Part shown: in pieces, positions 49,355 to 58,297 of the stretch
How the letters are laid out: each line of letters starts with the position of its first letter
Position numbering within the stretch: position 1 is the stretch's first letter
Assembly (NCBI GenBank): GCA_041665485.1
Contig: JBAYIT010000002.1
Span: 69,867-133,866 of the forward strand
Direction: 5' to 3'
DNA length: 64,000 bases
DNA from: Candidatus Shapirobacteria bacterium
Lineage (GTDB): Bacteria; Patescibacteriota; Microgenomatia; UBA12405
The notes under the pieces: model-generated
The model's database searches: none
The model's input: only the letters and a program-made list of their open reading frames with translations
What the model was told of the DNA's origin: nothing
Program-made: the position numbers and the translations under genes

Positions 49355-50572
49355 ATGCCTTCTATTAGAAAAATAAAAAATATCTTTTGGCATTTACCCA
49401 AAGCCGTTGTTGCCAACATCATTTATCAGTTTCCCAGTCGCCACCTTAAATTAATTGCCGTTACTGGCACCGATGGCAAAACTACTACCGCCACCCTCAT
49501 TCACCATCTCTTAAAAAAATCAGGAATTAAAGTCGGGCTGATTACCACTGTCACCAGCCCGGGTTTACACACCACTTCTCCTGACTCGCTAATTGTCCAA
49601 AAAGTCTTATCTGACTATTTTCACCAGGGTTATAGTCATGTTATTCTCGAAGTTACTGCCCATGCTCTTGACCAATTTCGCTTCTGGGGTTGCCACTTTC
49701 AGGTTGGAGTTTTAACCAATATCACTCACGAACATCTCGACGAATTCAAAACCATGGAAAATTACACCGCCGTCAAAGCTAGTCTCTTTTCCTCCTGCCA
49801 AACCGCCATTCTCAATAAAGACGATCCGTCTTTTCCGCAAATAAAAGCAAAATTTCCAAAAAAAATCATTCCCTACAGTATTAAATCACCCTGTAAATAT
49901 CAGGCTAAAAATATCCATCTTACCTCAAATTCCATTACCTTTACCGCCAATAGGCTAAAGATAGTCACCGACAGCCCTTATCGTTATCAAATTTACAACA
50001 TTCTTCCAAGTCTTATAATCTCTGACCTTTTCAAACTAAAGCGGTCAAGTTTTCAAAAAAATATCGCCGTTTTTCCTCACATCTCCGGACGCAGACAAGA
50101 GGTCAACAATCGTTTTGGTTTCAAAACTATTGTTGATTTTGCCCACACCCCCAATGCTCTCAAAAACACTCTTGAATCTCTCAAGAAAAAAAGGGGGAGC
50201 AAAATAATTGTTATCTTTGGAGCCACCGGTGGCCGAGACCAATCCAAACGTCCGCTTATGGGCAAGGTCGTTTCTGAATTGTCTGATATTGCCATCATTA
50301 CCTCCGACGACACCAGAAGTGAAAACATCTCCGTCATTAATCGTCAAATAATCTCCGGAATCACAAAAAATAAGAAATTCAAATATTATCAAATCGAAAA
50401 CCGTCAAGAGGCTTTTAATTATGCTGTTAGTATTGCCAAAACCAACGACATCATTATCGCCTGTGGCAAAGGTCACGAACAAACCATTCTCCTCGGTAAT
50501 ATCGAATACCCCTGGTCTGAAACCGCCGCCTTTCAAACCGCCTTCAAACTAAGAAGTCAAAAACATGACTAA
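49355..50572 (+). CDS. murE: UDP-N-acetylmuramoyl-L-alanyl-D-glutamate--diamino-acid ligase (MurE) lacking the N-terminal UDP-binding domain
   Basis: IYQFPSRHLKLIAVTGTDGKTTTA aligns to the E. coli MurE domain-2 start (FYHEPS..LVGVTGTNGKTTT). C-terminal GGRDQSKRPLMG and TSDDTRSEN correspond to MurE GGDRDKGKRPLMG and TDDNPRTEE. Only about 30 residues precede the P-loop; there is no room upstream for domain 1. Confidence 0.75.
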   Translation: MPSIRKIKNIFWHLPKAVVANIIYQFPSRHLKLIAVTGTDGKTTTATLIHHLLKKSGIKVGLITTVTSPGLHTTSPDSLIVQKVLSDYFHQGYSHVILEVTAHALDQFRFWGCHFQVGVLTNITHEHLDEFKTMENYTAVKASLFSSCQTAILNKDDPSFPQIKAKFPKKIIPYSIKSPCKYQAKNIHLTSNSITFTANRLKIVTDSPYRYQIYNILPSLIISDLFKLKRSSFQKNIAVFPHISGRRQEVNNRFGFKTIVDFAHTPNALKNTLESLKKKRGSKIIVIFGATGGRDQSKRPLMGKVVSELSDIAIITSDDTRSENISVINRQIISGITKNKKFKYYQIENRQEAFNYAVSIAKTNDIIIACGKGHEQTILLGNIEYPWSETAAFQTAFKLRSQKHD

Positions 50573-51155
50573 ATATAATCTAAAACCATCCAGTCCAGAC
50601 CCTGCCACAAACTATGCTCTTGGTTTACTCCCTCAAAGAAACGTGGCCCACCTCTGGTATCAGGACACCAGTTGCCGATCTAATCTTTCAAAATTTAAGC
50701 TTTCCTCAGAAAACAAAAGAATAATAAAATTAACCGGCGATTTTGAATTCGAAAAAATACCTTTATTAAAATTTAACCTATCATCAAGTCTCCTAAACAC
50801 CATAAACACCTGGTCTGAGACCCTGGACTGGCAATTTCCCAAAAGCTCAATTAGAAATGTTTTTACTCACCACATCTTCAATTATCTTTACCTCTGGAAA
50901 AAAACAGGCAGTCAGAATGTTGTTGCCTATTCTGTCTGTTATTTTGATCAAAACATCTCTCATATCGCCTACGTTTTTTATCACCCCAGTCTGGCCCGAA
51001 CCAATCTTCCCATCAGGCTGACTCTTCAATCCATTATTGATAGTCAAAAATTGGGGCTAAAATATTGTTATCTTGGTCGTTTCAGTCATTACAAACGCAA
51101 CTTTCCCGGATTTGAACATTATCAAAATCAAATCTGGTCGGATTACCGCCACTAA
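50565..51155 (+). CDS. hypothetical protein; weak resemblance to aminoacyl-tRNA-protein transferase (ATE_C/Bpt, Fem-like fold) C-terminal region
   Basis: 196 aa. The C-terminal YCYLGRFSHYKRNFPGFEHYQNQIW recalls the ATE/Bpt YLGY..KM.YK..F.P.E...W region. The match is from memory only and weak. Confidence 0.25.
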   Translation: MTKYNLKPSSPDPATNYALGLLPQRNVAHLWYQDTSCRSNLSKFKLSSENKRIIKLTGDFEFEKIPLLKFNLSSSLLNTINTWSETLDWQFPKSSIRNVFTHHIFNYLYLWKKTGSQNVVAYSVCYFDQNISHIAYVFYHPSLARTNLPIRLTLQSIIDSQKLGLKYCYLGRFSHYKRNFPGFEHYQNQIWSDYRH

Positions 51156-51159
51156 CAAC

Positions 51160-52461
51160 ATGAAAATACACATTTTAGGTATCGCCGGAACTAAAACAGC
51201 CCCCCTTGCCATTCTTTTGCAAAGAATGGGCCACCAAGTTAGTGGTTCTGATCAGCCACAAATTTTTCCCCCCATCAGTACCCTGCTTGCTAAAAACAAA
51301 ATCCCTATCAATTCCACTCCCATCACCAAAGAAATTGATCAGGTTATTGTCGGCAACTCTTTTAAATCATTCCAACTTTGTCAATCAGAATACCAACAGG
51401 CACAAAAGCTTAAAATCCCCACCATGTCTTACACCCAGTACCTAATTAGAAATCTTATTAAAAAACAATCAATACTTGTTGCCGGATCTTATGGTAAAAC
51501 AACTATCACTGGTTTATTATCGTTTGTTTTTCTTAAACTTAAACTTGACCCGTCGTATATGTTTGGTGGCCAAGCGGTAAATCATCTCGAATCAACCAGA
51601 TTCGGTCAGTCTGATTTTTCAATTATCGAAGCCTGTGAGTCTATAAACGGACTAGATACCCAGTCAACATTCCTATATTATCCAATTAAGTACGTCATAT
51701 TGACATCCGCCGATTGGGAACATAAAGATTCCTTTAAAACCGAACAAGAAAATTTAAAAGCATTTATTCAACTGGTTAGTAAAATCCCTAAAAATGGCCT
51801 ACTTGTCTATAACCCCAAAAGCAAATCAGCCTCATCAGTCGCCCAATACTCTTCGGCCAAAAAAGTACCGTACAACTACTCTTTAAACATAAACCCGATT
51901 ATTCCCGGAAAATATAACTTCGAAAACTCACTTGCAGTGGCTACTCTCTGCCAAGAATTAGGGTTGAATAAAATCGCATTCATCAAAGCCATTAATCAAT
52001 TCCGAGGAATTAAACGTCGATTAGAACCTATTTACCACCACAAAGACATATTGATATACGACGATTTCGCCCAATCTCCGGTAAGAATAAGCCAAGCGCT
52101 TCAAGCTATATCCGAAAAACATCCAAACTGTCCGATCAAAGTTTTTTTCGAACCTCATGCCTCCTTTCTTCAATACCAAGCCGGAATTAAAGGTCTTAAA
52201 GAATCTCTCCAAATAGCCACTGAAATTATTGTTTCGCCATTAAAATTTTCTGAAAGTGTCTCTAAATCAGACAGAGTAACTATTAAGGACTATCAAAAAA
52301 TTCTTGAAAAAAAAATGGAATACATTCCCGATTACCAATTGATTTCCCAACATTATCTTCAAACACTTCAAAAGGGGGATATCTTAATTCATTTTAGCTC
52401 CGGAGGCCTTAATGGCCTTACTTGCTTAAAAAAGATTGCTAAAAACTTAATTTCCCGATAA
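51160..52461 (+). CDS. MurC/Mpl-family UDP-N-acetylmuramate--amino acid/peptide ligase, Mpl-like
   Basis: Start at ATG 51160. MKIHILGIAGT..LAILLQRMGHQVSGSDQPQIFPPISTLL resembles Mpl (MRIHILGICGT..GHEVTGSD..YPPMSTLL). P-loop LVAGSYGKTT, GQSDFSIIEA, YDDFAQSP (compare Mpl YDDFAHHP). Confidence 0.65.
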   Translation: MKIHILGIAGTKTAPLAILLQRMGHQVSGSDQPQIFPPISTLLAKNKIPINSTPITKEIDQVIVGNSFKSFQLCQSEYQQAQKLKIPTMSYTQYLIRNLIKKQSILVAGSYGKTTITGLLSFVFLKLKLDPSYMFGGQAVNHLESTRFGQSDFSIIEACESINGLDTQSTFLYYPIKYVILTSADWEHKDSFKTEQENLKAFIQLVSKIPKNGLLVYNPKSKSASSVAQYSSAKKVPYNYSLNINPIIPGKYNFENSLAVATLCQELGLNKIAFIKAINQFRGIKRRLEPIYHHKDILIYDDFAQSPVRISQALQAISEKHPNCPIKVFFEPHASFLQYQAGIKGLKESLQIATEIIVSPLKFSESVSKSDRVTIKDYQKILEKKMEYIPDYQLISQHYLQTLQKGDILIHFSSGGLNGLTCLKKIAKNLISR

Positions 52462-52470
52462 CATTAACCA

Positions 52471-53505
52471 ATGACTCATCTTTTTCTCGGTCTGCTCCTC
52501 TTTTCTTTTTTAACCACCAGCATTCTCGTTGTCCCTTTCATAAATCTTCTCTACCGCCTTAAATTTCAACGTCAGAACCAAAAAACAGTTGACTTCCAGA
52601 ATAAAAAAACTGAAATATTTGATAAGTTTCACTCTCAAAAACAGGGGACTCCTGTCGGTGGTGGCCTCCTCATTATTCTTTCCGTCTGCCTTCTTTTCAT
52701 TATTCTTCTTCCTATTCTAAAATTTGCTCGTATTTTTATCTCCTCTAACTACCAAATGGAGAGTGAACTGGGCATAATTTTCTTCTCTTTCATTAGTTTT
52801 GCTCTTCTCGGCCTATATGATGATGTTCACAAGTTTTTCGGCTTCCAAAAAACAGGCTTTTTTGGATTGAAGATGCGCCAAAAGCTACTTCTCCAAATTT
52901 TTTTGGCCACCGTTATTTCTTGTCTAATTTACTTCCAACTAGGAATTAACTTTATTTACATCCCCTTTGCTGGAGCTGTTAGTCTTGGTCTGTTTTTTAT
53001 TCCCATAAGCAGTGTTATTATCGTTGCCTTCGCCAACTTCTTCAATATTACTGACGGGCTTGACGGCCTTTCCTGCGGGCTTTTAATGATTTCTCTTTTT
53101 GCTTTTTGGTTTCTTAGTAGCAACTCTCTGGATACTCCAATTTCTCTCTTTCTTAGTCTGTGGCTGGGAGCATTAATTGCCTTCCTGTATTTCAATGTCT
53201 TTCCCGCCCGCATCTGGCTGGGCGACGTCGGCTCTCTCTCCTTTGGAGCCACCTTTGCCGTCATCGCCATTCTTCTCGGAAAAATTGTCCCTCTTATTAT
53301 TGTTGGCTCACCCTTCATTATTGAAGGCCTTTCCAGTGCTATCCAGATTATTAGTAAGAAATATTTTAATCGAAAAATATTCCCTGCCGCTCCCATCCAC
53401 CTCACCCTCCAACATTTTGGTTGGGAAGAGCCAAAAATCGTTCTTCGTGCTTGGCTTGCCGGTATTATTCTCGCTATCTTTGGCCTATGGCTCGGACTAA
53501 ACTAG
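52471..53505 (+). CDS. mraY: phospho-N-acetylmuramoyl-pentapeptide-transferase
   Basis: NITDGLDGL and WLGDVGSLSFGATFA are MraY signature motifs. 10 TM segments, 344 aa. Confidence 0.9.
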   Translation: MTHLFLGLLLFSFLTTSILVVPFINLLYRLKFQRQNQKTVDFQNKKTEIFDKFHSQKQGTPVGGGLLIILSVCLLFIILLPILKFARIFISSNYQMESELGIIFFSFISFALLGLYDDVHKFFGFQKTGFFGLKMRQKLLLQIFLATVISCLIYFQLGINFIYIPFAGAVSLGLFFIPISSVIIVAFANFFNITDGLDGLSCGLLMISLFAFWFLSSNSLDTPISLFLSLWLGALIAFLYFNVFPARIWLGDVGSLSFGATFAVIAILLGKIVPLIIVGSPFIIEGLSSAIQIISKKYFNRKIFPAAPIHLTLQHFGWEEPKIVLRAWLAGIILAIFGLWLGLN

Positions 53506-54194
53506 AAAAATTACTAACAGAAGAGGTCAATCATTATTTAGGAATTCCGTATGCTAAAAACTACTGGAAAAACAACCTCTTAATTAAAGAGGCTATTCTT
53601 GGTGGCAAAGGAACCTGGCCGGAAATTGACTACGCCACCACTTGCGCCGGAGAAAAATACCAAGTTGACATCACCTCTCTATCACCCAAAGAACTCTATA
53701 ATTTTCAAAAAAAACACAAGATCGGCATCGATTGCTCCGGTCTCGTCTACCACCTACTCGATTTCATCGATAAAAATATTGGCGCAAATGGCATTCTATT
53801 TAAAGTTGTCAGTGTTAATCCTAATCATGGCAAATATGGCGTTAGGTCACTATCAGCCGACAGCCTCACCAATTCTATAAATTCTTACCCCATCACCAAT
53901 TATTCTCATGTTCAGCTCGGAGATTTAATTCGCCATCATCAAGGCAAGCACACTCTCCTTATTACCGGCCAAAAGAACAACCGCCTCAACTATGTTCACA
54001 GTAGTCTCACCACTTTAGTTTCCGGAGTTCACACCGGCTATATCAAAATAATTGACCCTCAAAAACCACTTTTTTACCAAGATTGGACCGATGTCACTAA
54101 AAACCACCAAAAATATCAGGAACTTTCTGACTCCAAAGCCGGGGACGGCATATATCGCCTTAATTGCTGGAAAAATATTACTTTTCCTCTATAA
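53487..54194 (+). CDS. NlpC/P60-family (papain-like) cell-wall peptidase/amidase-like protein
   Basis: Start at ATG 53487, overlapping the mraY 3' end by 19 nt. GIDCSGLVYHLL is the NlpC/P60 catalytic Cys motif. A downstream His-containing region (HVQLGDLIRHHQGKH) follows. Confidence 0.5.
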   Translation: MARTKLEKLLTEEVNHYLGIPYAKNYWKNNLLIKEAILGGKGTWPEIDYATTCAGEKYQVDITSLSPKELYNFQKKHKIGIDCSGLVYHLLDFIDKNIGANGILFKVVSVNPNHGKYGVRSLSADSLTNSINSYPITNYSHVQLGDLIRHHQGKHTLLITGQKNNRLNYVHSSLTTLVSGVHTGYIKIIDPQKPLFYQDWTDVTKNHQKYQELSDSKAGDGIYRLNCWKNITFPL

Positions 54195-54345
54195 GTTCTC
54201 GATATTTAGATGGGTCTAAAGATAATATCTCTACTTCCGTTCCACATTCTTGGCACTCTAAAATGTCGCCAACTTCCAGCAATCCTTCTGTTTTTTTAAT
54301 CTCCATTCCGCAATCTGGGCAAATAATTTTTTTGTTTTGGTCCAT
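54178..54345 (-). CDS. LysW-like C4 zinc-ribbon small protein (55 aa), not in the supplied ORF track
   Basis: Reverse complement translates to MDQNKKIICPDCGMEIKKTEGLLEVGDILECQECGTEVEILSLDPSKYRELIEEK. The CPxCG...GE...C.ECG.E.E...LDP pattern mirrors LysW/ArgW amino-group carrier proteins (CPECGAEL..GELVVCEDCGAELEVVGLDP). The C-terminus is EEK, not the canonical ..EDWGE. Confidence 0.45.
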   Translation of the reverse strand: MDQNKKIICPDCGMEIKKTEGLLEVGDILECQECGTEVEILSLDPSKYRELIEEK

Positions 54346-54378
54346 ATAGAGTAAAATAAAATCTAACTAACCTATTAT

Positions 54379-55167
54379 ATGACACCTTTAATCAAATTCG
54401 AAAACATCTACTTTAAGAGGGAAGATCAAAACCCTACCGGGTCGGCCAAAGATCGAAGCCTTCCACTGCAACTAAAAAATCTTCTTGCTAAAAACTATCA
54501 ATCAGCTGTCATCTCATCTTCTGGTAACGCCGCCATCTCTGCTATCTTTTATTGTCGAAAACTAAATATTCCTCTCAAAGTCTTTCTTTCTCCACAAACT
54601 GATCCTTACAAATTAAAATTAATTCTCTCTCAACATCAGGATGTCACCCTTACTCCATCTCCCAATAGTCTGGCTTTTAAATACGCCAAAACTAACCATT
54701 CATATCTCCTGCGTCAATCAACCGACCCTGTTGCCCAAATCGGTTACTCCACTATTGCCACCGAAATAGTTTCCAAGCTCCCTCTTGTTTCCAGCATCTT
54801 TATACCTGTTGGCTCCGGAACCACTCTCCTTGGCGTCTCCAAAAATTTACCCCAAAACGTAAAAATATTCGCCGTAGAACCGGCCTCTCGCTACGGCCAA
54901 GAATCAGAAACTATCACCGACGCACTATCTGTCAAACTAACCCCTCTTAAATCAGAAGTCGCCGAAGCTATTAAAAAACATCACGGGTCAAATATCATCG
55001 TAAGAAACCAAGCCGTTTTAGATAATCTAAAAAAACTCCATCAACATCAAATAAACACTTCTCCCGAAGGCGCTCTTGCTTTAACAGGCTATTATCAAGC
55101 CAAAACAAAATTTGAAGTTGGAGACTACCCCGTTATTTTATTAACTGGCATTAATCGCCAAATATGA
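54379..55167 (+). CDS. fold-type II PLP-dependent enzyme, cysteine synthase/CBS (CysK)-like, short (262 aa)
   Basis: FKREDQNPTGSAKDRSL is the PLP-lysine motif (CysK E..NPxGSvKDR, threonine synthase NPTGSFKDR). SSGNAAISAIFYC matches TSGNTG. A Gly-rich loop PVGSGTTLLG is present. Confidence 0.6.
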   Translation: MTPLIKFENIYFKREDQNPTGSAKDRSLPLQLKNLLAKNYQSAVISSSGNAAISAIFYCRKLNIPLKVFLSPQTDPYKLKLILSQHQDVTLTPSPNSLAFKYAKTNHSYLLRQSTDPVAQIGYSTIATEIVSKLPLVSSIFIPVGSGTTLLGVSKNLPQNVKIFAVEPASRYGQESETITDALSVKLTPLKSEVAEAIKKHHGSNIIVRNQAVLDNLKKLHQHQINTSPEGALALTGYYQAKTKFEVGDYPVILLTGINRQI

Positions 55168-56213
55168 AAAAACTAATCCAACTAATTATCAACTCTGGCT
55201 ACACTATCATTTATCCTCAGGTCGACGAATTCCTCGGAATTGATTTCCCCCAACTTAATTGCTTTCATTCTCTCAAAAATGAATCAAAAACAGTAAAAAA
55301 TACTGGCCAATTTCTTAAATCAAACCTGAAATTCATAAGTCAGGAATTTAAACCGCCAATCGCCATCATGCCTTTCAAACCATCAGCCAAAACCGAAAAA
55401 ATTTGCCAAAAGCAAAATTGGCTGGTTCTAAGCAATCCCGCCAAATTAAATCGTCTACTGGAAGACAAAATAAAATTCAGCCAACTTTGCCACCAACACA
55501 AACTCCCCACCATCCCCCATCTTGTCGCTCCACTCGATCAAGAAAATTTTCTTTTGGCTCAAAAAAAATTTGGCCCGAAACTCGTTCTTCAAACTCACTT
55601 CGGCTGGGCCGGCAATAGCACCTTTTATTTTGAAAGTTATCAGGAAATCGCCAATAAAATTTCCCCAAACACCCTTTGTAAGTTTTCACCCTACCTGGAG
55701 GGCTACACTCTCATTAACAACTGCTGTCAAACAAAATTTGGTCTAATTCAAAGCCCAGTTGGCCGTCAACTTACCGGCCTTAAAGAATATACCCAAAACC
55801 CTTTTGCCACTGTTGGACGTCAGTGGCCCTCTCTTGCTCCTCAATCTGTTATCAATCAGGTGGTTGAGGTTACTAAACTACTATCCGACAAATTGCTAAA
55901 AAAATACGATTATCGTGGTTTTTTCGGAATAGATTTTTTTGTCCACCAAAACCGAGTTATGATTCTTGAAATTAATCCCCGATTAACCGCCTCATTTGGT
56001 TTCTACACTAAACTCGAAACGGATAACAATATCACCCCTCTTTTCCTCTTTCACTTAGCCGAATTTCTTAACCTTGATTATCAGGTCGATTTTGATCGAG
56101 AACAGTCAAGAACTGACTCCTCTTTAATTGTTGGCACCGAAATAACTCCCAAAGACAAGTTCGGTAAAACCATTGCCCAATACCACCAGACTTCCCCTAT
56201 TATCAAGGATTAG
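55164..56213 (+). CDS. ATP-grasp family ligase (RimK/LysX/Ddl-like), specificity unknown
   Basis: LEDKIKFSQLCHQHKLPTIPHL (central domain) and RGFFGIDFFVHQNRVMILEINPRLTAS (C-terminal Mg/ATP site) are generic ATP-grasp motifs. It lacks the Ddl N-terminal HG..GEDG signature. Confidence 0.55.
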   Translation: MKKLIQLIINSGYTIIYPQVDEFLGIDFPQLNCFHSLKNESKTVKNTGQFLKSNLKFISQEFKPPIAIMPFKPSAKTEKICQKQNWLVLSNPAKLNRLLEDKIKFSQLCHQHKLPTIPHLVAPLDQENFLLAQKKFGPKLVLQTHFGWAGNSTFYFESYQEIANKISPNTLCKFSPYLEGYTLINNCCQTKFGLIQSPVGRQLTGLKEYTQNPFATVGRQWPSLAPQSVINQVVEVTKLLSDKLLKKYDYRGFFGIDFFVHQNRVMILEINPRLTASFGFYTKLETDNNITPLFLFHLAEFLNLDYQVDFDREQSRTDSSLIVGTEITPKDKFGKTIAQYHQTSPIIKD

Positions 56214-57252
56214 CCCGCTAATTTGGCTACCAATAAGTATTACCATAATTGGCTTATTCTTTATTTCTCTTGCCAGCCCGTCAGAAGCCAAAAGTTTTGG
56301 TAGTCCAACCTATTTTCTGGAACGACAATTTATTTGGGCAATCGTTGCCTTCCTTCTCTATTTTATTGCCACCAAAATTCCTGTTAATTTACTTTTTCGC
56401 CACTCTATTTGGCTTTACTTAATCTCTATTGTCGGACTAATAATCGTTCTTATTCCTCAACTCGGCCATCAAGCTCTTGGAGCCAGCCGTTGGTTCCGAT
56501 TCGGCCAAATTGGCATTCAACCAACCGAAATTTTCAAACTAACTGGAATCATTGTTTTTAGCCAAATATTTTCTCAAGCCAAATATCAGTCACTCAAATA
56601 TCTTTTATATTTTCTCTGTCCGCCACTACTTCTCATTCTCCTCGAACCAAACTTTAGTGCCGTTGTTCTCATTTGTGCTATTACTATCTCCATCTATTAC
56701 CTTTCCGGAGCTAGTCTCAACGATTTAGTCATCCTTAGCCTTATCGGCCTTGCCTCTGGTTGCATCCTTGTTGTCACTTCACCCTATAGGTTAGCCAGAT
56801 TCAACAGTCTAACTTCACCCGACAGCCAAAAAAGCTACCATTCTCAACAACTAATCATCAGCCTCTCTGCCGGAGGCTGGTTTGGTAAAGGTCTAACTAA
56901 CTCTAATCAAAAATTTCAATTCCTTCCCAAAATTTCTACCGACTCAATTATGGCTGTTATTGCTGAAGAAACGGGCATTGTCGGTATTGTTGCCATCTTC
57001 TACCTCTATCTAACTTTAATCGGCCATCTCTTTAAATTATCAAAAAAAGTTATTGCCCCATATTCTCTTTTCGTCGCCGGCATCGCCTGTTGGCTTGCTT
57101 TCCAGGCTTTGGTTAATGCCGCTGCTGTTTCTTCTCTGGTTCCTTTAACCGGTGTCCCTCTGCCTTTAATTTCCTACGGCGGATCTTCACTTGTTAGTCT
57201 AATAGTTGCCTTTGGACTAGCAAAAAATATAGAATCAAAATATGCCAAATAA
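56173..57252 (+). CDS. ftsW: SEDS-family peptidoglycan glycosyltransferase FtsW/RodA
   Basis: 10 TM segments. The C-terminal VPLPLISYGGSSLVSL SEDS signature is present. Sits in the dcw cluster before murG. Confidence 0.85.
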   Translation: MPNTTRLPLLSRISPLIWLPISITIIGLFFISLASPSEAKSFGSPTYFLERQFIWAIVAFLLYFIATKIPVNLLFRHSIWLYLISIVGLIIVLIPQLGHQALGASRWFRFGQIGIQPTEIFKLTGIIVFSQIFSQAKYQSLKYLLYFLCPPLLLILLEPNFSAVVLICAITISIYYLSGASLNDLVILSLIGLASGCILVVTSPYRLARFNSLTSPDSQKSYHSQQLIISLSAGGWFGKGLTNSNQKFQFLPKISTDSIMAVIAEETGIVGIVAIFYLYLTLIGHLFKLSKKVIAPYSLFVAGIACWLAFQALVNAAAVSSLVPLTGVPLPLISYGGSSLVSLIVAFGLAKNIESKYAK

Positions 57253-58297
57253 TAAGGTAATCTGCCTTACCGGCAATCACCATACTCCAGCCATAGAACT
57301 TATTCGCCAACTAAAACAGCAACCCCAAAAGTGGCAAATAAGCTATTTAACCCACAGCTATCAAACTGAGACTCACATCAAAAACACCATTATTCCTAAA
57401 CTCAATGTCAGCCTCCATCTAATTCAATGCAACAAATTCGACCGTCAAAAACCACTTCTGTCCATCTTTAAAACACCACTCTTAATCGTTGGCATTTTTC
57501 AATCTTTATTACTTCTTAAGTCGGAAAAACCAGATATTGTCGTTTCTTTTGGTGGTTATGTTTCTGTTCCGGTAATTATTGCTGCTTGGATTCTCAAAAT
57601 TCCCTCAATCACCCACGAACAAACACTCACTATCGGCCTGGCTACCAAAATAAATAGTTACTTCTGCCAAAAAGTTGCTCTGTCTTTTCCTGGTCCTGAC
57701 ATTAACAATAAAACTATCGTCACTGGCAATCTTCTTCGCCAACAAATCTTCGATACCAAATCAAAAAAATATCAAAGTCTTGAATCAAAAATTAAAAAAT
57801 CACCACTAATTTATATCACCGGAGGCAGTCAAGGATCCCAATTTATTAATGACTTAACCGTTAGTATTTTACCTCAACTTAGCCAATACACAATTATCCA
57901 TCAAACCGGGCCAAAACCAACTCAAACAAACAACAAATATCCCAATTATCACCAGACCGAATATATTGACCTCGAAGATATCGGCTGGGTTTTCCACCAA
58001 TCCTCTTTAATTGTCAGCCGAGCCGGGGCTAATATTTGTCAGGAAATTGCCACTCTCAACCATCAATCAATTATTATTCCTCATCCCAAAACTCAACAAG
58101 ACGAACAAATAAAAAACGCCCAGTGGCTTAAATCAAGATTACCGGAATTAACCACTATTATTCCTCAATCAAAAGCCAACTCTAGTTTAGTTACAAGGGC
58201 GATTTTTAAACACCTTAATTCCAAAATTAAAAACAACAAAACAATCGCGGGCCAAACAACCCATCCTCTAATCAATCTCATCAATGAAATGGTTTAA
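57242..58297 (+). CDS. murG: UDP-GlcNAc--undecaprenyl-PP-MurNAc-pentapeptide GlcNAc transferase
   Basis: GT28 architecture. LIYITGGSQGSQFIN (MurG GGSQGA motif). N-terminal LTGNHHTPAIEL Gly-rich loop variant. Confidence 0.8.
   Translation: MPNNKVICLTGNHHTPAIELIRQLKQQPQKWQISYLTHSYQTETHIKNTIIPKLNVSLHLIQCNKFDRQKPLLSIFKTPLLIVGIFQSLLLLKSEKPDIVVSFGGYVSVPVIIAAWILKIPSITHEQTLTIGLATKINSYFCQKVALSFPGPDINNKTIVTGNLLRQQIFDTKSKKYQSLESKIKKSPLIYITGGSQGSQFINDLTVSILPQLSQYTIIHQTGPKPTQTNNKYPNYHQTEYIDLEDIGWVFHQSSLIVSRAGANICQEIATLNHQSIIIPHPKTQQDEQIKNAQWLKSRLPELTTIIPQSKANSSLVTRAIFKHLNSKIKNNKTIAGQTTHPLINLINEMV

What the first reader, a model, noticed from the sequence alone, without database searches (positions are those of the whole stretch)
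54178..54345. Unannotated antisense 55-aa LysW-like zinc-ribbon gene overlapping the NlpC/P60 3' end
The supplied ORF track lists a low-complexity + strand ORF (54164-54349). The minus strand instead encodes MDQNKKIICPDCGMEIKKTEGLLEVGDILECQECGTEVEILSLDPSKYRELIEEK. This has two CxxC knuckles and the GE...LDP spacing of LysW-family proteins. It is divergent from the CysK-like gene, with a 33-nt gap, and overlaps the upstream + gene by 17 nt. Its C-terminus is EEK rather than the canonical C-terminal Glu (EDWGE). If it is a carrier protein, it would be an atypical one.
Basis: seen in the sequence. Interest (0 to 1): 0.7.

Follow-up and report, generated by a model that had tools for sequence, protein, structure and literature searches.

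The report
Lysine-tailed LysW-like carrier in cell-wall operon
The 55-codon minus-strand ORF is a real, strongly conserved gene for a LysW-type zinc-ribbon protein that ends in lysine instead of glutamate. It always sits with a PLP enzyme and an ATP-grasp ligase among peptidoglycan genes, so it probably marks an undescribed carrier-protein step in cell-wall precursor synthesis, not lysine biosynthesis.

Summary
Window 54178-54345(-) encodes a 55-aa protein with two CxxC knuckles. It passes Pfam Zn_ribbon_LysW (34.7 bits, cutoff 27). Its profile hits solved LysW chains at E about 4e-9, and its AF2 model matches LysW structures first.

It is not unannotated: NCBI and JGI already call this exact protein 'LysW'. 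That name is misleading. It fails the LysW equivalog cutoff, and its C-terminus is an invariant ...E-E-K, not ...EDWGE. No LysX/Z/Y/J/K genes lie nearby.

In 80 of 80 related species loci it is intact and on the opposite strand. It is more conserved than its neighbours, lying between a cytoplasmic NlpC/P60-like gene and a ThrC-like PLP enzyme plus an ATP-grasp ligase, in the murD slot of the dcw cluster.

Lys-terminated relatives in other CPR lineages, 22 Dormibacteria-like loci (GC 67%) and other uncultured bacteria keep the same divergent arrangement, often with a MurD-like ligase. A canonical EDWGE LysW control sits in the classic lysine operon.

Best reading: a new Lys-terminated class of LysW-type carrier serving peptidoglycan precursor synthesis. 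The chemistry is inferred, not shown. My preferred proposal is D-Glu supply through a γ-Glu-ε-Lys adduct.

The parts
54178..54345 (-). Gene for a 55-aa Lys-terminated (…ELIEEK) LysW-superfamily zinc-ribbon protein. Zn ligands are C9, C12, C31 and C34. It is acidic (14 D/E against 7 K/R).
   Evidence: ORF; PF21344, 34.7 bits against GA 27; PDB LysW E about 4e-9; AF2 model and Foldseek hits to LysW; conservation, invariant C-terminal K; purifying selection; charge.
54346..54378 (.). 33-nt divergent intergenic region between the LysW-like gene and the PLP-enzyme gene. On the minus strand a perfect TATAAT lies at 54379-54374, overlapping the T of the PLP gene's ATG. On the plus strand there is a TAAAAT.
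   Evidence: TATAAT lies within 12 nt of the PLP start codon on the LysW-sense strand in 54 of 74 related loci. This is a consensus match only; transcription was not tested.
54379..55167 (+). Fold-type II PLP enzyme, 262 aa, threonine-synthase/serine-racemase-like. It has the PLP lysine K24 (GSAKDR) and an SSSGNAA loop. It is always divergent from the LysW-like gene.
   Evidence: PALP 4.5e-40; weak archaeal-type ThrC models, far below cutoffs; best PDB hit serine racemase, 6e-14; invariant residues across 75 sequences, including distant lineages; synteny.
55164..56213 (+). ATP-grasp carboxylate-amine ligase, 349 aa, of the PRK06524-like family. Its start overlaps the PLP gene's stop by 4 nt (ATGA).
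53487..54194 (+). Divergent cytoplasmic NlpC/P60-like papain-fold protein, 235 aa counted from the conserved Met. It has an invariant GIDCSG Cys and a His, and no signal peptide. Its 3' end overlaps the LysW-like 3' end by 17 nt.
   Evidence: the JGI gene call is 235 aa; alignment, invariant C83 and H155; 27 of 35 members hit PF00877, best 1.4e-6; Spr/MepS only at E 0.4-0.6; clear PF00877 proteins at the equivalent place in other lineages.
49355..53505 (+). Upstream dcw context: MurE (405 aa, N-terminally short), an ATE_C/Fem-like 196-aa protein, MurC-like ligase (433 aa from 51160), and MraY.
56173..58297 (+). Downstream dcw context: FtsW and MurG. The NlpC/P60, LysW-like, PLP and ATP-grasp block therefore occupies the position between mraY and ftsW, where E. 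coli has murD.
   Evidence: E. coli order murE-murF-mraY-murD-ftsW; no MurD-like or MurF-like gene in the window or within ±10 kb in the CPR loci.

Best explanation
The ORF is a genuine gene for a small acidic zinc-ribbon protein of the LysW (amino-group carrier protein) superfamily. It belongs to a distinct class whose C-terminus is an invariant lysine (…E-E-K-COOH) rather than the reactive glutamate of LysW (…EDWGE-COOH).

It is the small-protein component of a conserved module. The core is a threonine-synthase/serine-racemase-like PLP enzyme plus an ATP-grasp ligase of the L-amino-acid-ligase/BesA/PylC/PurK type, both transcribed divergently from it. The module usually adds a cytoplasmic NlpC/P60 papain-fold hydrolase. 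Outside the dcw-embedded versions it also adds a MurD-like Mur ligase. The module is wired into cytoplasmic peptidoglycan-precursor synthesis, at or near the MurD (position-2, D-Glu) step.

Proposed mechanism (inferred, not shown):
1. The zinc-ribbon body docks on each enzyme, as LysW does.
2. The ATP-grasp enzyme activates a carboxyl group of a free amino acid, most likely the γ-carboxyl of L-Glu. It joins it to the ε-amino group of the terminal Lys. This tethers the substrate by its side chain and leaves its α-amino-acid end free.
3. The PLP enzyme, which needs that free α-amine, converts the tethered residue. The most likely conversion is Cα epimerisation to D-Glu.
4. The NlpC/P60 enzyme belongs to a family whose usual bond is γ-D-glutamyl-diamino acid. 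It hydrolyses the isopeptide and releases the product for the MurD(-like) ligase.

Sub-confidences: real gene 0.98; LysW superfamily 0.95; not lysine/arginine biosynthesis 0.9; functional partner of the PLP and ATP-grasp pair in a peptidoglycan-linked pathway 0.75; covalent carrier through the terminal Lys 0.4; product is D-Glu 0.15-0.2.
For: Real gene under purifying selection:
- It is intact in all 80 species loci, at 60-78% identity. Most neighbours are at 31-61%; only MraY (72-88%) matches or exceeds it.
- Codon entropy is 0.66/0.41/1.32 and pN/pS is 0.25.
- Shine-Dalgarno-like motifs lie upstream in lineages that use them.

LysW homology:
- PF21344 scores above its gathering score.
- PDB LysW 5k2m_E is hit at 3.7e-9 and 3wwl_A at 5.5e-9.
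- The AF2 model's top five Foldseek hits are LysW chains, TM 0.61-0.67, probability 1.00.

A distinct class:
- The terminal K is invariant in 120 of 120 listed clusters and in every locus where the ORF could be delimited.
- The K terminus also holds in distant relatives ending EEEK, DEEK or MIQK.
- With tails removed, the nearest neighbour has the same tail class in 162 of 171 cases.

The module is conserved across deep divergence (GC 32-67%):
- Shapirobacteria, 80 of 80 loci.
- Eight further look-ups in other lineages.
- 22 Dormibacteria-like metagenome loci.
- All show ATP-grasp and PLP enzyme divergent from the LysW-like gene. On the convergent side lies a MurD-like ligase (with or without NlpC/P60), an NlpC/P60-like or unassigned 234-254-aa protein, or MraY.

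Control: a canonical EDWGE LysW lies in the classic operon with homocitrate synthase, aconitase, HICDH, RimK-type LysX, LysY, LysZ and LysJ.

The adjacent Mur ligase is MurD-like. TIGR01087 scores are 181-247 bits against a cutoff of 212. It differs from E. coli MurD at D182N, K319S/Q and L416F. D182 and K319 are shown to affect Glu chirality and L416 lies in the Glu site (PMC8788868).

The ATP-grasp fold is closest to enzymes that make γ-Glu or Nε-Lys amides (BesA, PylC) and to L-amino-acid ligases.

The enzymes look active: PLP Lys and Asn loop, ExNPR motif, Cys/His pair.

A genuine Ddl accompanies the module in L087, so this ATP-grasp is not the Ddl.

An ATP-dependent alternative D-Glu route, MurD2/MurL, is a precedent.
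Against: - No covalent adduct, enzyme activity or expression was observed. Every chemical step is inference.
- The PLP enzyme's best family matches are threonine synthases, not racemases. No fold-type II glutamate racemase is known to me.
- NlpC/P60 enzymes normally cleave γ-D-Glu joined to the α-amine, not the ε-amine, of the diamino acid (established knowledge).
- NlpC/P60 is absent next to the module in at least one lineage (L092).
- A MurD-like gene is absent from the dcw-embedded CPR versions within ±10 kb.
- The AF2 model leaves only about 4 free tail residues. That is a much shorter arm than LysW's, so reaching into active sites may be hard.
- I could not test whether genomes carrying the module lack murI, dat or a canonical murD.
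Confidence: 0.45

Rival explanations
1. Non-covalent role. The zinc-ribbon protein is an adaptor, activator or regulatory subunit of the PLP enzyme, the ATP-grasp ligase or the MurD-like ligase. Alternatively its conserved antisense placement inside the operon tunes expression of the flanking genes. The EEK tail would then be a binding epitope rather than an attachment site.
For: - The opposite-strand placement holds across phyla, with very short divergent gaps and frequent convergent 3' overlaps.
- A TATAAT overlaps the PLP gene's start codon in 54 of 74 loci.
- AF2 predicts residues 47-51 pack as a strand, leaving only about 4 free residues.
- Nothing here shows a covalent adduct.
Against: - The protein sequence, not just the locus, is under strong purifying selection and is more conserved than most neighbouring genes, MraY excepted.
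- Its only characterised homologues are covalent carriers that work with ATP-grasp ligases.
- An invariant terminal residue is the hallmark of such carriers.
- Tail conservation does not depend on which gene overlaps it, or on whether any does.
Confidence: 0.27
2. C-terminal α-carboxyl or processing chemistry instead of ε-amine chemistry, in one of two forms.
(a) The NlpC/P60 peptidase removes the encoded Lys to expose Glu54. Glu54 then acts as a LysW-style amino-group carrier for the ATP-grasp ligase.
(b) The ATP-grasp ligase and the papain-fold peptidase add and remove residues at the C-terminus. This would resemble the tubulin …EEY tyrosination cycle (TTL and vasohibin), RimK on S6, or scaffold-peptide biosynthesis.
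For: - The −1 and −2 positions are mostly Glu, resembling LysW and tubulin acidic tails.
- An ATP-grasp ligase and a papain-fold hydrolase are paired in the module.
- Precursor capping is known for Pup and ubiquitin (established knowledge).
Against: - An amino acid joined through its α-amine to a Glu γ-carboxyl or to the α-carboxylate has no free α-amine. That is hard to reconcile with a fold-type II PLP enzyme being the most constant partner.
- The −1 residue can be Q or T and the −2 residue can be I, V or D, while K never varies.
- NlpC/P60 is not always adjacent.
- The ATP-grasp is not of the RimK/LysX or TTL clade.
Confidence: 0.2
3. It is what the databases call it: canonical LysW/ArgW, the α-aminoadipate/glutamate carrier of lysine or arginine biosynthesis.
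For: NCBI and JGI names. The Pfam LysW domain hit. TIGR01206 is its best NCBIfam match.
Against: - TIGR01206 scores 38.7 bits against a cutoff of 53.2, and NF041070 scores 23 against 75.
- There is no C-terminal Glu or EDWGE motif.
- No LysX, LysZ, LysY, LysJ or LysK lies in any of more than 110 contexts, whereas the EDWGE control has them all.
- The partner ATP-grasp is not RimK/LysX type.
- The neighbours are cell-wall genes.
Confidence: 0.03
4. Spurious ORF: the + strand ORF, or no gene at all, is the real feature.
For: The ORF is short, overlaps a + strand ORF, and has no obvious Shine-Dalgarno sequence in the window.
Against:: universal conservation, a coding pattern of substitution, and an antisense frame open in only 21 of 79 loci.
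Confidence: 0.01

Closest known systems
LysW/ArgW amino-group carrier proteins (Thermus, Sulfolobus, Thermococcus; PDB 3wwl, 5k2m, 3vpb)
   Same: About 55 aa. Same zinc-ribbon fold with two CxxC knuckles, a G-[DE]-I-x-x-C…CG-x-E-x-E core and a following …P-L… segment, and an acidic surface. Both are encoded next to an ATP-grasp ligase.
   Different: - The terminal residue is an invariant Lys, not Glu, and there is no EDWGE motif.
- The predicted free tail is about 4 residues rather than about 11.
- The partner ATP-grasp is LAL/BesA/PurK-like, not RimK/LysX.
- The partners are a ThrC-like PLP enzyme, NlpC/P60 and MurD-like ligase instead of LysZ, LysY, LysJ and LysK.
- The context is peptidoglycan synthesis, not the lysine or arginine operon.
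- The gene is always on the opposite strand to its partners.
BesA (γ-Glu-propargylglycine ligase) and PylC (3-methyl-D-ornithine–Nε-lysine ligase), ATP-grasp amide ligases
   Different: Sequence identity is only 11%. They act on free small molecules, not on a protein terminus. PurK, PurD and biotin carboxylase score similarly, so the fold does not fix the substrate.
MurD2/MurL alternative D-Glu incorporation pathway (Xanthomonas and others; PMC8788868)
   Same: A non-canonical MurD-like ligase is paired with an ATP-consuming step that yields D-Glu in the stem peptide, in bacteria lacking murI. D182 and K319 of MurD affect Glu chirality there; the module's MurD-like proteins differ at both and at the nearby site residue L416.
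   Different: No MurL homologue was looked for or seen. Here the accessory proteins are a PLP enzyme, an ATP-grasp ligase, a papain-fold hydrolase and a carrier-like protein. The substitutions are not the MurD2 ones (N, not E, at position 182; K348 retained).
Tubulin tyrosination cycle (TTL ATP-grasp ligase plus vasohibin papain/transglutaminase-fold carboxypeptidase acting on …EEY) and RimK on ribosomal protein S6
   Same: An acidic …EE-X C-terminus is paired with an ATP-grasp ligase and a papain-fold hydrolase. This resemblance rests on established knowledge only.
Asl(fm) D-aspartate ligase plus aspartate racemase operon of Enterococcus and Lactococcus
   Same: A racemase is paired with an ATP-grasp ligase that joins an amino-acid side-chain carboxyl to the ε-amine of a Lys that follows γ-D-Glu, for peptidoglycan. 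This rests on my own knowledge and was not tested here.
   Different: There the acceptor Lys belongs to the UDP-MurNAc-peptide and no small carrier protein is involved. The racemase is PLP-independent.

Membership tests
Pfam PF21344 Zn_ribbon_LysW (LysW-like globular domain superfamily) | Match to the family HMM above the gathering score | tested here: met
   34.7 bits against a cutoff of 27, E 1.3e-8, residues 9-49. All 120 listed homologues carry PF21344.
Pfam PF21344 Zn_ribbon_LysW (LysW-like globular domain superfamily) | Four-Cys zinc ribbon with the LysW fold | tested here: met
   C9, C12, C31 and C34 are invariant. The AF2 model (pLDDT 78.9) has LysW chains as its top five Foldseek PDB hits, TM 0.61-0.67. 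The profile hits 5k2m_E and 3wwl_A at E about 4e-9. Zinc binding itself was not tested.
LysW/ArgW amino-group carrier protein (TIGR01206 / NF041070 equivalog) | Score above the curated equivalog cutoff | tested here: not met
   TIGR01206 scores 38.7 against 53.2. NF041070 scores 23.1 against 75.
LysW/ArgW amino-group carrier protein (TIGR01206 / NF041070 equivalog) | C-terminal Glu in an EDWGE-type tail, whose γ-carboxyl carries the substrate | tested here: not met
   The tail is …ELIEEK. The terminal K is invariant in 120 clusters and in every locus where the ORF could be delimited. Canonical members in the same searches end in EDWGE.
LysW/ArgW amino-group carrier protein (TIGR01206 / NF041070 equivalog) | Genomic association with LysX/ArgX (RimK-type ATP-grasp), LysZ, LysY, LysJ and LysK | tested here: not met
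LysW/ArgW amino-group carrier protein (TIGR01206 / NF041070 equivalog) | Covalent loading of an amino acid on the C-terminal residue by an ATP-grasp ligase | not testable with these tools
   This needs mass spectrometry or an in-vitro ligation assay.
NlpC/P60 papain-fold hydrolases (upstream gene 53487-54194) | PF00877 match and a Cys/His catalytic pair | tested here: inconclusive
   The window protein scores E 0.14, below the cutoff. 27 of 35 orthologues match weakly, best 1.4e-6. The GIDCSG Cys and a downstream His are invariant. The profile hits Spr/MepS only at E 0.4-0.6. Equivalent genes in other lineages hit PF00877 clearly.
Threonine synthase (neighbour 54379-55167) | Score above the equivalog cutoff of a ThrC model | tested here: not met
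   The best is PRK08329 at 85 bits against 358, and TIGR00260 at 30 against 167. It is a fold-type II PLP enzyme (PF00291, 138 bits) of unassigned specificity.
D-Ala-D-Ala ligase (neighbour 55164-56213) | Ddl family match, and being the only Ddl-like gene of the cluster | tested here: not met
   Ddl models hit only at E 0.01-0.03. A bona fide Ddl (PF01820 and PF07478) coexists with the module in L087.

The most novel reading that the evidence does not exclude
Lys-terminated LysW-like proteins are 'carboxyl-group carrier proteins', the mirror image of LysW. They tether an amino acid by its side-chain carboxyl to the ε-amine of their terminal Lys, so that a PLP enzyme can work on the free α-centre. 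In Patescibacteria, Dormibacterota and other uncultured lineages this would constitute a third, ATP-driven and carrier-mediated route to the D-Glu (or another non-canonical position-2 residue) of peptidoglycan. The known routes are MurI/Dat and MurD2/MurL.
Probability: 0.17. Interest if true: 0.9.

Novelty: new variant of a known kind. Interest (0 to 1): 0.75.

Why it matters
LysW-type carrier proteins are known only from lysine and arginine biosynthesis and, to my knowledge, from a few Streptomyces natural-product pathways. They always use a C-terminal glutamate.

Here a whole class has an invariant C-terminal lysine and a different enzyme set. It is locked into peptidoglycan-precursor gene clusters across very distant, mostly uncultured bacteria (CPR/Patescibacteria, Dormibacterota and others). 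That has three consequences.
- It exposes a systematic mis-annotation ('lysine biosynthesis protein LysW') in organisms that are not expected to make lysine this way.
- It points to an undescribed step in cell-wall precursor synthesis, occupying the murD slot of the dcw cluster or paired with an atypical MurD.
- It gives a small, easily expressed four- to five-protein system in which the idea can be tested directly. It could also be a lineage-specific antibiotic target.

Tried and rejected
- Canonical LysW function: rejected.
- The ATP-grasp as the cluster's D-Ala-D-Ala ligase: rejected, because a true Ddl coexists in L087 and Ddl models barely hit.
- The extra ~1.3-kb gene between mraY and murC in most relatives being the missing MurD: rejected. 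It is MurA-like by its N-terminal motif, and the same position in L092 carries an EPSP_synthase-family gene.
- Tail conservation as a by-product of the overlapping convergent gene: rejected. The overlapped gene differs between lineages (NlpC/P60, MurD-like, MraY) or is absent, yet the tail is kept.
- The small protein as a detached N-terminal zinc ribbon of a ThrC-like enzyme: no support. No ThrC-sized protein appears among the top 150 profile hits.
- PDB sequence search with the ATP-grasp: uninformative, only CPS at E 0.03.
- σ70 promoter and terminator scan of 53300-55000: not above shuffles, 5 found against 4.0 expected.
- tRNA scan of the window: none found.
- tblastn with E. coli MurI, MurD and MurF and a CPR Ddl against the window and all fetched loci (1.8 Mb): no MurI, Ddl or extra MurD. 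This says nothing about the rest of those genomes.
The Dormibacteria subgroup worked.
- Literature searches found no description of this class or module. One search failed on syntax.
Full report
**1. The observation**

Window 54178-54345 on the minus strand is an ATG-initiated ORF of 55 codons. It encodes MDQNKKIICPDCGMEIKKTEGLLEVGDILECQECGTEVEILSLDPSKYRELIEEK, exactly as reported.

- The + strand ORF 54164-54349 also exists.
- The gap to the divergent PLP-enzyme gene is 33 nt (54346-54378).
- The convergent overlap with the upstream + gene is 17 nt (54178-54194).
- The window is 37.5% GC. Its gene content is that of a Candidatus Shapirobacteria (Patescibacteria/CPR) genome.
- The exact protein is on record from NCBI, JGI, ENA and Logan assemblies, on contigs up to 335 kb. 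NCBI and JGI name it 'lysine biosynthesis protein LysW'.

**2. It is a real gene**

A search of 5.8 billion proteins returned 242 clusters. The 120 listed are 50-81 aa long, 65-84% identical, and all carry PF21344.

A scan of one genome per species returned 80 loci, nearly all Shapirobacteria or Microgenomates MAGs.

- The ORF is intact in every locus where it could be delimited.
- Its identity to the window protein is 60-78%. Most flanking proteins are at 31-61%; only MraY, at 72-88%, matches or exceeds it.
- Codon-position entropy is 0.66/0.41/1.32. pN/pS is 0.25 with pS saturated at 0.78.
- An antisense frame stays open in only 21 of 79 loci. The + strand ORF is therefore a shadow of the real gene.

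**3. What family it belongs to**

Evidence for LysW-superfamily membership:

- Pfam Zn_ribbon_LysW matches above its gathering score: 34.7 bits against 27.
- A profile of 35 homologues hits the solved LysW chains of Thermococcus (5k2m_E, E 3.7e-9) and Thermus (3wwl_A, E 5.5e-9).
- An AF2 model (pLDDT 78.9) has LysW chains as its five best Foldseek PDB matches, with TM 0.61-0.67 and probability 1.00.
- The four Cys are invariant, and the protein is acidic, with 14 D/E against 7 K/R.

Evidence against being canonical LysW:

- TIGR01206 scores 38.7 bits against a cutoff of 53.2.
- The tail is …E-L-[IV]-E-E-K in every homologue. The final K is invariant, and the −1 residue is only rarely Q or T.
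- The AF2 model packs residues 47-51 as a β-strand onto the ribbon. That leaves a free tail of only about 4 residues.

**4. A wider Lys-terminated class**

An exhaustive profile search of 1.84 billion cluster representatives gave 830 hits at E ≤ 1e-3. Reading these sequences shows three broad kinds:

- canonical …EDWGE LysW;
- proteins with long poly-acidic tails, or tandem duplications;
- many 48-70-aa proteins from other lineages that end …EEEK, …DEEK, …EDEK or …MIQK, with the same distance from the conserved Pro to the terminal Lys.

With the tails removed, the nearest neighbour of a sequence has the same tail class in 162 of 171 cases. The Lys-terminated proteins therefore form coherent lineages distinct from canonical LysW.

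**5. Genomic context: the key result**

In the window and in all 80 Shapirobacteria loci the gene order, in window orientation, is:

mraW … ftsI – murE – ATE_C-like – murC – (murA) – mraY – NlpC/P60-like → | ← LysW-like | → PLP enzyme – ATP-grasp – ftsW – murG – ftsQ-like – ftsA.

The LysW-like gene is always the only one on the opposite strand.

Look-ups of nine Lys-terminated proteins from other lineages showed the same core. In every case a PALP gene and a 414-471-aa ATP-grasp gene are divergent from the LysW-like gene. All the ATP-grasp partners scanned belong to the PRK06524-like family. The convergent side varies:

| Query / locus | Convergent side and notes |
|---|---|
| P0430, Dormibacteria, GC 67% | MurD-like, then NlpC/P60; not in a dcw cluster |
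| P0423 | MurG and FtsW on the convergent side; NlpC/P60 and MraY lie upstream of the PLP–ATP-grasp pair; two FemAB genes nearby |
| P0401 | 234-aa protein, then MraY; a true Ddl, MurA, MurC and MurF nearby |
| P0379 | MraY |
| P0315 | MurD-like with an inserted DUF559 domain |
| P0409 | MurD-like, then SH3-NlpC/P60 |
| P0405 | MraY; complete dcw cluster from mraW to ftsZ, with no NlpC/P60 or MurD |
| P0425 | 250-aa protein, then MraY |
| P0400 | MurD-like, then a 235-aa protein |

A metagenome scan with the Dormibacteria subgroup gave 22 further loci. All have ATP-grasp – PLP enzyme ←|LysW-like→|← MurD-like – NlpC/P60 – 287-aa unknown. Again the small protein is among the best-conserved members (68-98% against 46-90%).

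As a control, a canonical EDWGE LysW (P0490) sits in the textbook operon. That operon holds homocitrate synthase, aconitase subunits, homoisocitrate dehydrogenase, RimK-type LysX with its LysX pre-ATP-grasp domain, LysY, LysZ and LysJ.

The two tail classes thus have entirely different, internally consistent contexts.

**6. The partners**

*PLP enzyme (54379-55167).* It is a fold-type II enzyme (PF00291, E 4.5e-40).

- Its best family matches are archaeal-type threonine synthases, far below their cutoffs.
- Its best solved relative is serine racemase (E 6e-14). Aspartate racemase, dehydratases, CysK and SbnA follow.
- The PLP lysine (K24 in GS-x-K-D-R), the SSSGNAA carboxylate loop and a glycine-rich loop are conserved in at least 97% of the 75 sequences aligned, distant lineages included.

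*ATP-grasp enzyme (55164-56213).*

- It overlaps the PLP gene's stop codon by 4 nt.
- It keeps the E-x-N-P-R Mg/acyl-phosphate motif.
- It has no RimK or LysX signature.
- It gives a very confident AF2 model (pLDDT 95.6).

*Upstream gene.* Its likely start is the conserved Met at 53487, giving 235 aa as in the JGI call.

- It is a divergent NlpC/P60. The GIDCSG Cys and a His are invariant.
- 27 of 35 orthologues weakly hit PF00877.
- There is no N-terminal hydrophobic segment, so it is probably cytoplasmic. The same holds for the clear NlpC/P60 proteins of the other lineages.

*Mur ligase adjacent to the LysW-like gene in stand-alone modules.*

- It is MurD-like. TIGR01087 scores 181-247 bits against a cutoff of 212.
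- Relative to E. coli MurD it has D182N, K319S/Q and L416F.
- In the MurD2/MurL work, D182 and K348 switch, and K319 relaxes, the choice between D-Glu and L-Glu. L416 lies in the Glu site, but its substitution did not change specificity (PMC8788868).

*Position in the CPR dcw clusters.* In the dcw-embedded CPR versions only MurE and MurC lie within ±10 kb. The module occupies the mraY–ftsW interval, where E. coli has murD.

**7. How it most likely works**

*Shown:* homology to a covalent carrier; an invariant terminal Lys; obligatory linkage to a PLP enzyme and a carboxylate-amine ligase; frequent linkage to a γ-glutamyl-type papain-fold hydrolase and a MurD-like ligase; and embedding in peptidoglycan-precursor genes.

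*Inferred:*

- A fold-type II PLP enzyme needs a free α-amine, whereas LysW-style attachment blocks it.
- The terminal Lys offers a free ε-amine.
- The simplest scheme that uses every component runs as follows. The ATP-grasp enzyme joins a side-chain carboxyl, most simply the γ-carboxyl of L-Glu as BesA does, to Lys55-Nε, as PylC does for free Lys. The PLP enzyme then acts on the tethered α-centre, most simply by epimerisation to D-Glu. NlpC/P60 cleaves the γ-D-glutamyl-lysine isopeptide. MurD(-like) uses the product.
- ATP would make the L-to-D conversion unidirectional, as ATP does in the MurL route.

I put the general carrier-in-a-peptidoglycan-pathway reading at about 0.45, and the specific D-Glu chemistry at 0.15-0.2.

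Weak points:

- The PLP enzyme looks more like ThrC than like a racemase.
- Canonical NlpC/P60 bonds involve the α-amine of the diamino acid.
- NlpC/P60 and MurD-like genes are not universal neighbours.
- The predicted tail is short.
- I could not check whether module-bearing genomes lack murI or dat.

**8. Rivals**

- *Non-covalent adaptor or regulatory role, possibly exploiting the conserved antisense placement (0.27).* Gaps between the LysW-like and PLP start codons run from −2 to 195 nt, and are typically 14-44 nt in Shapirobacteria. A perfect TATAAT on the LysW-sense strand overlaps the PLP start codon in 54 of 74 loci. Convergent 3' overlaps are frequent.
- *C-terminal α-carboxyl or processing chemistry (0.2).* Either the Lys is removed to expose Glu54, or there is a tubulin-EEY-like add-and-remove cycle.
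- *Canonical LysW (0.03).*
- *Spurious ORF (0.01).*

**9. Novelty**

Five literature searches found nothing on a Lys-terminated LysW class or on a LysW–PLP–ATP-grasp–NlpC/P60–MurD module. All carriers seen are from uncultured lineages, which explains the silence.

I rate it a new variant of a known kind: a LysW-type carrier with a different reactive terminus, a different enzyme set and a different pathway. If the ε-amine 'carboxyl-carrier' logic is right, it would border on a new kind.

Noticed in passing
window 54346-54381 and the equivalent region of L004-L083: Back-to-back promoter-like architecture. On the LysW-sense strand a perfect TATAAT directly abuts or overlaps the PLP gene's start codon (CATATAAT) in 54 of 74 related loci. 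A second conserved A/T motif (…TTATATTTT…) reads as a −10 box for the PLP/ATP-grasp direction. Both −35 regions would lie inside the opposite gene.
   Followed up: partly
window 54178-54194; L084 8140-8174; many loci (conv_gap −17 to −50): The 3' end of the LysW-like gene usually overlaps the 3' end of the convergent gene, which is NlpC/P60, MurD-like or MraY depending on lineage. There is then no room for terminators, so the operon transcript and the LysW-like mRNA would be mutually antisense. The opposite-strand placement is conserved across phyla.
   Followed up: partly
window 50565-51155 (+): A 196-aa protein lies between murE and murC, with weak Arg-tRNA-protein-transferase C-terminal (ATE_C, GNAT-like) similarity. 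It is conserved at this place in all Shapirobacteria loci, L089 and L092. FemAB genes occupy nearby positions in another lineage. It may be an aminoacyl-tRNA-dependent stem-peptide or cross-bridge transferase.
   Followed up: no
window 49355-50572 (+): MurE is only 405 aa and aligns to MurE models from about position 71-90 onward. It therefore lacks most of the N-terminal (UDP-MurNAc-binding) domain. Short MurE genes (382-440 aa) also occur in L089 and L092.
   Followed up: no
window 52461-52471, compared with L004 11716-13044 and most other loci: Most relatives carry a 442-aa MurA-like gene between murC and mraY. The window, and about a dozen loci such as L005, L022, L039 and L044, lack it there.
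   Followed up: partly
L084 10582-11445; L097-L118: In Dormibacteria-like loci a conserved 287-aa protein with no Pfam match is a sixth constant member of the module, upstream of NlpC/P60.
   Followed up: no
L090 8134-10185: The MurD-like ligase of this module carries an inserted or C-terminal DUF559 (endonuclease-like) domain, at residues 491-597.
   Followed up: no
proteins P0248-P0390: Many other uncharacterised LysW-like classes exist. Examples are tandem-duplicated 120-180-aa forms with basic tails, and forms with long poly-Asp/Glu tails ending in W, Y, D or E. None resembles canonical EDWGE LysW at the terminus.
   Followed up: no
record titles of L005-L083: Dozens of the Shapirobacteria-like MAG contigs are titled 'uncultured Gammaproteobacteria bacterium', and one 'Candidatus Methanoperedens sp.'. 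These are evidently taxonomic mislabels of CPR bins.
   Followed up: no
window 1-64000: ARAGORN finds no tRNA or tmRNA gene in the whole 64-kb window.
   Followed up: yes
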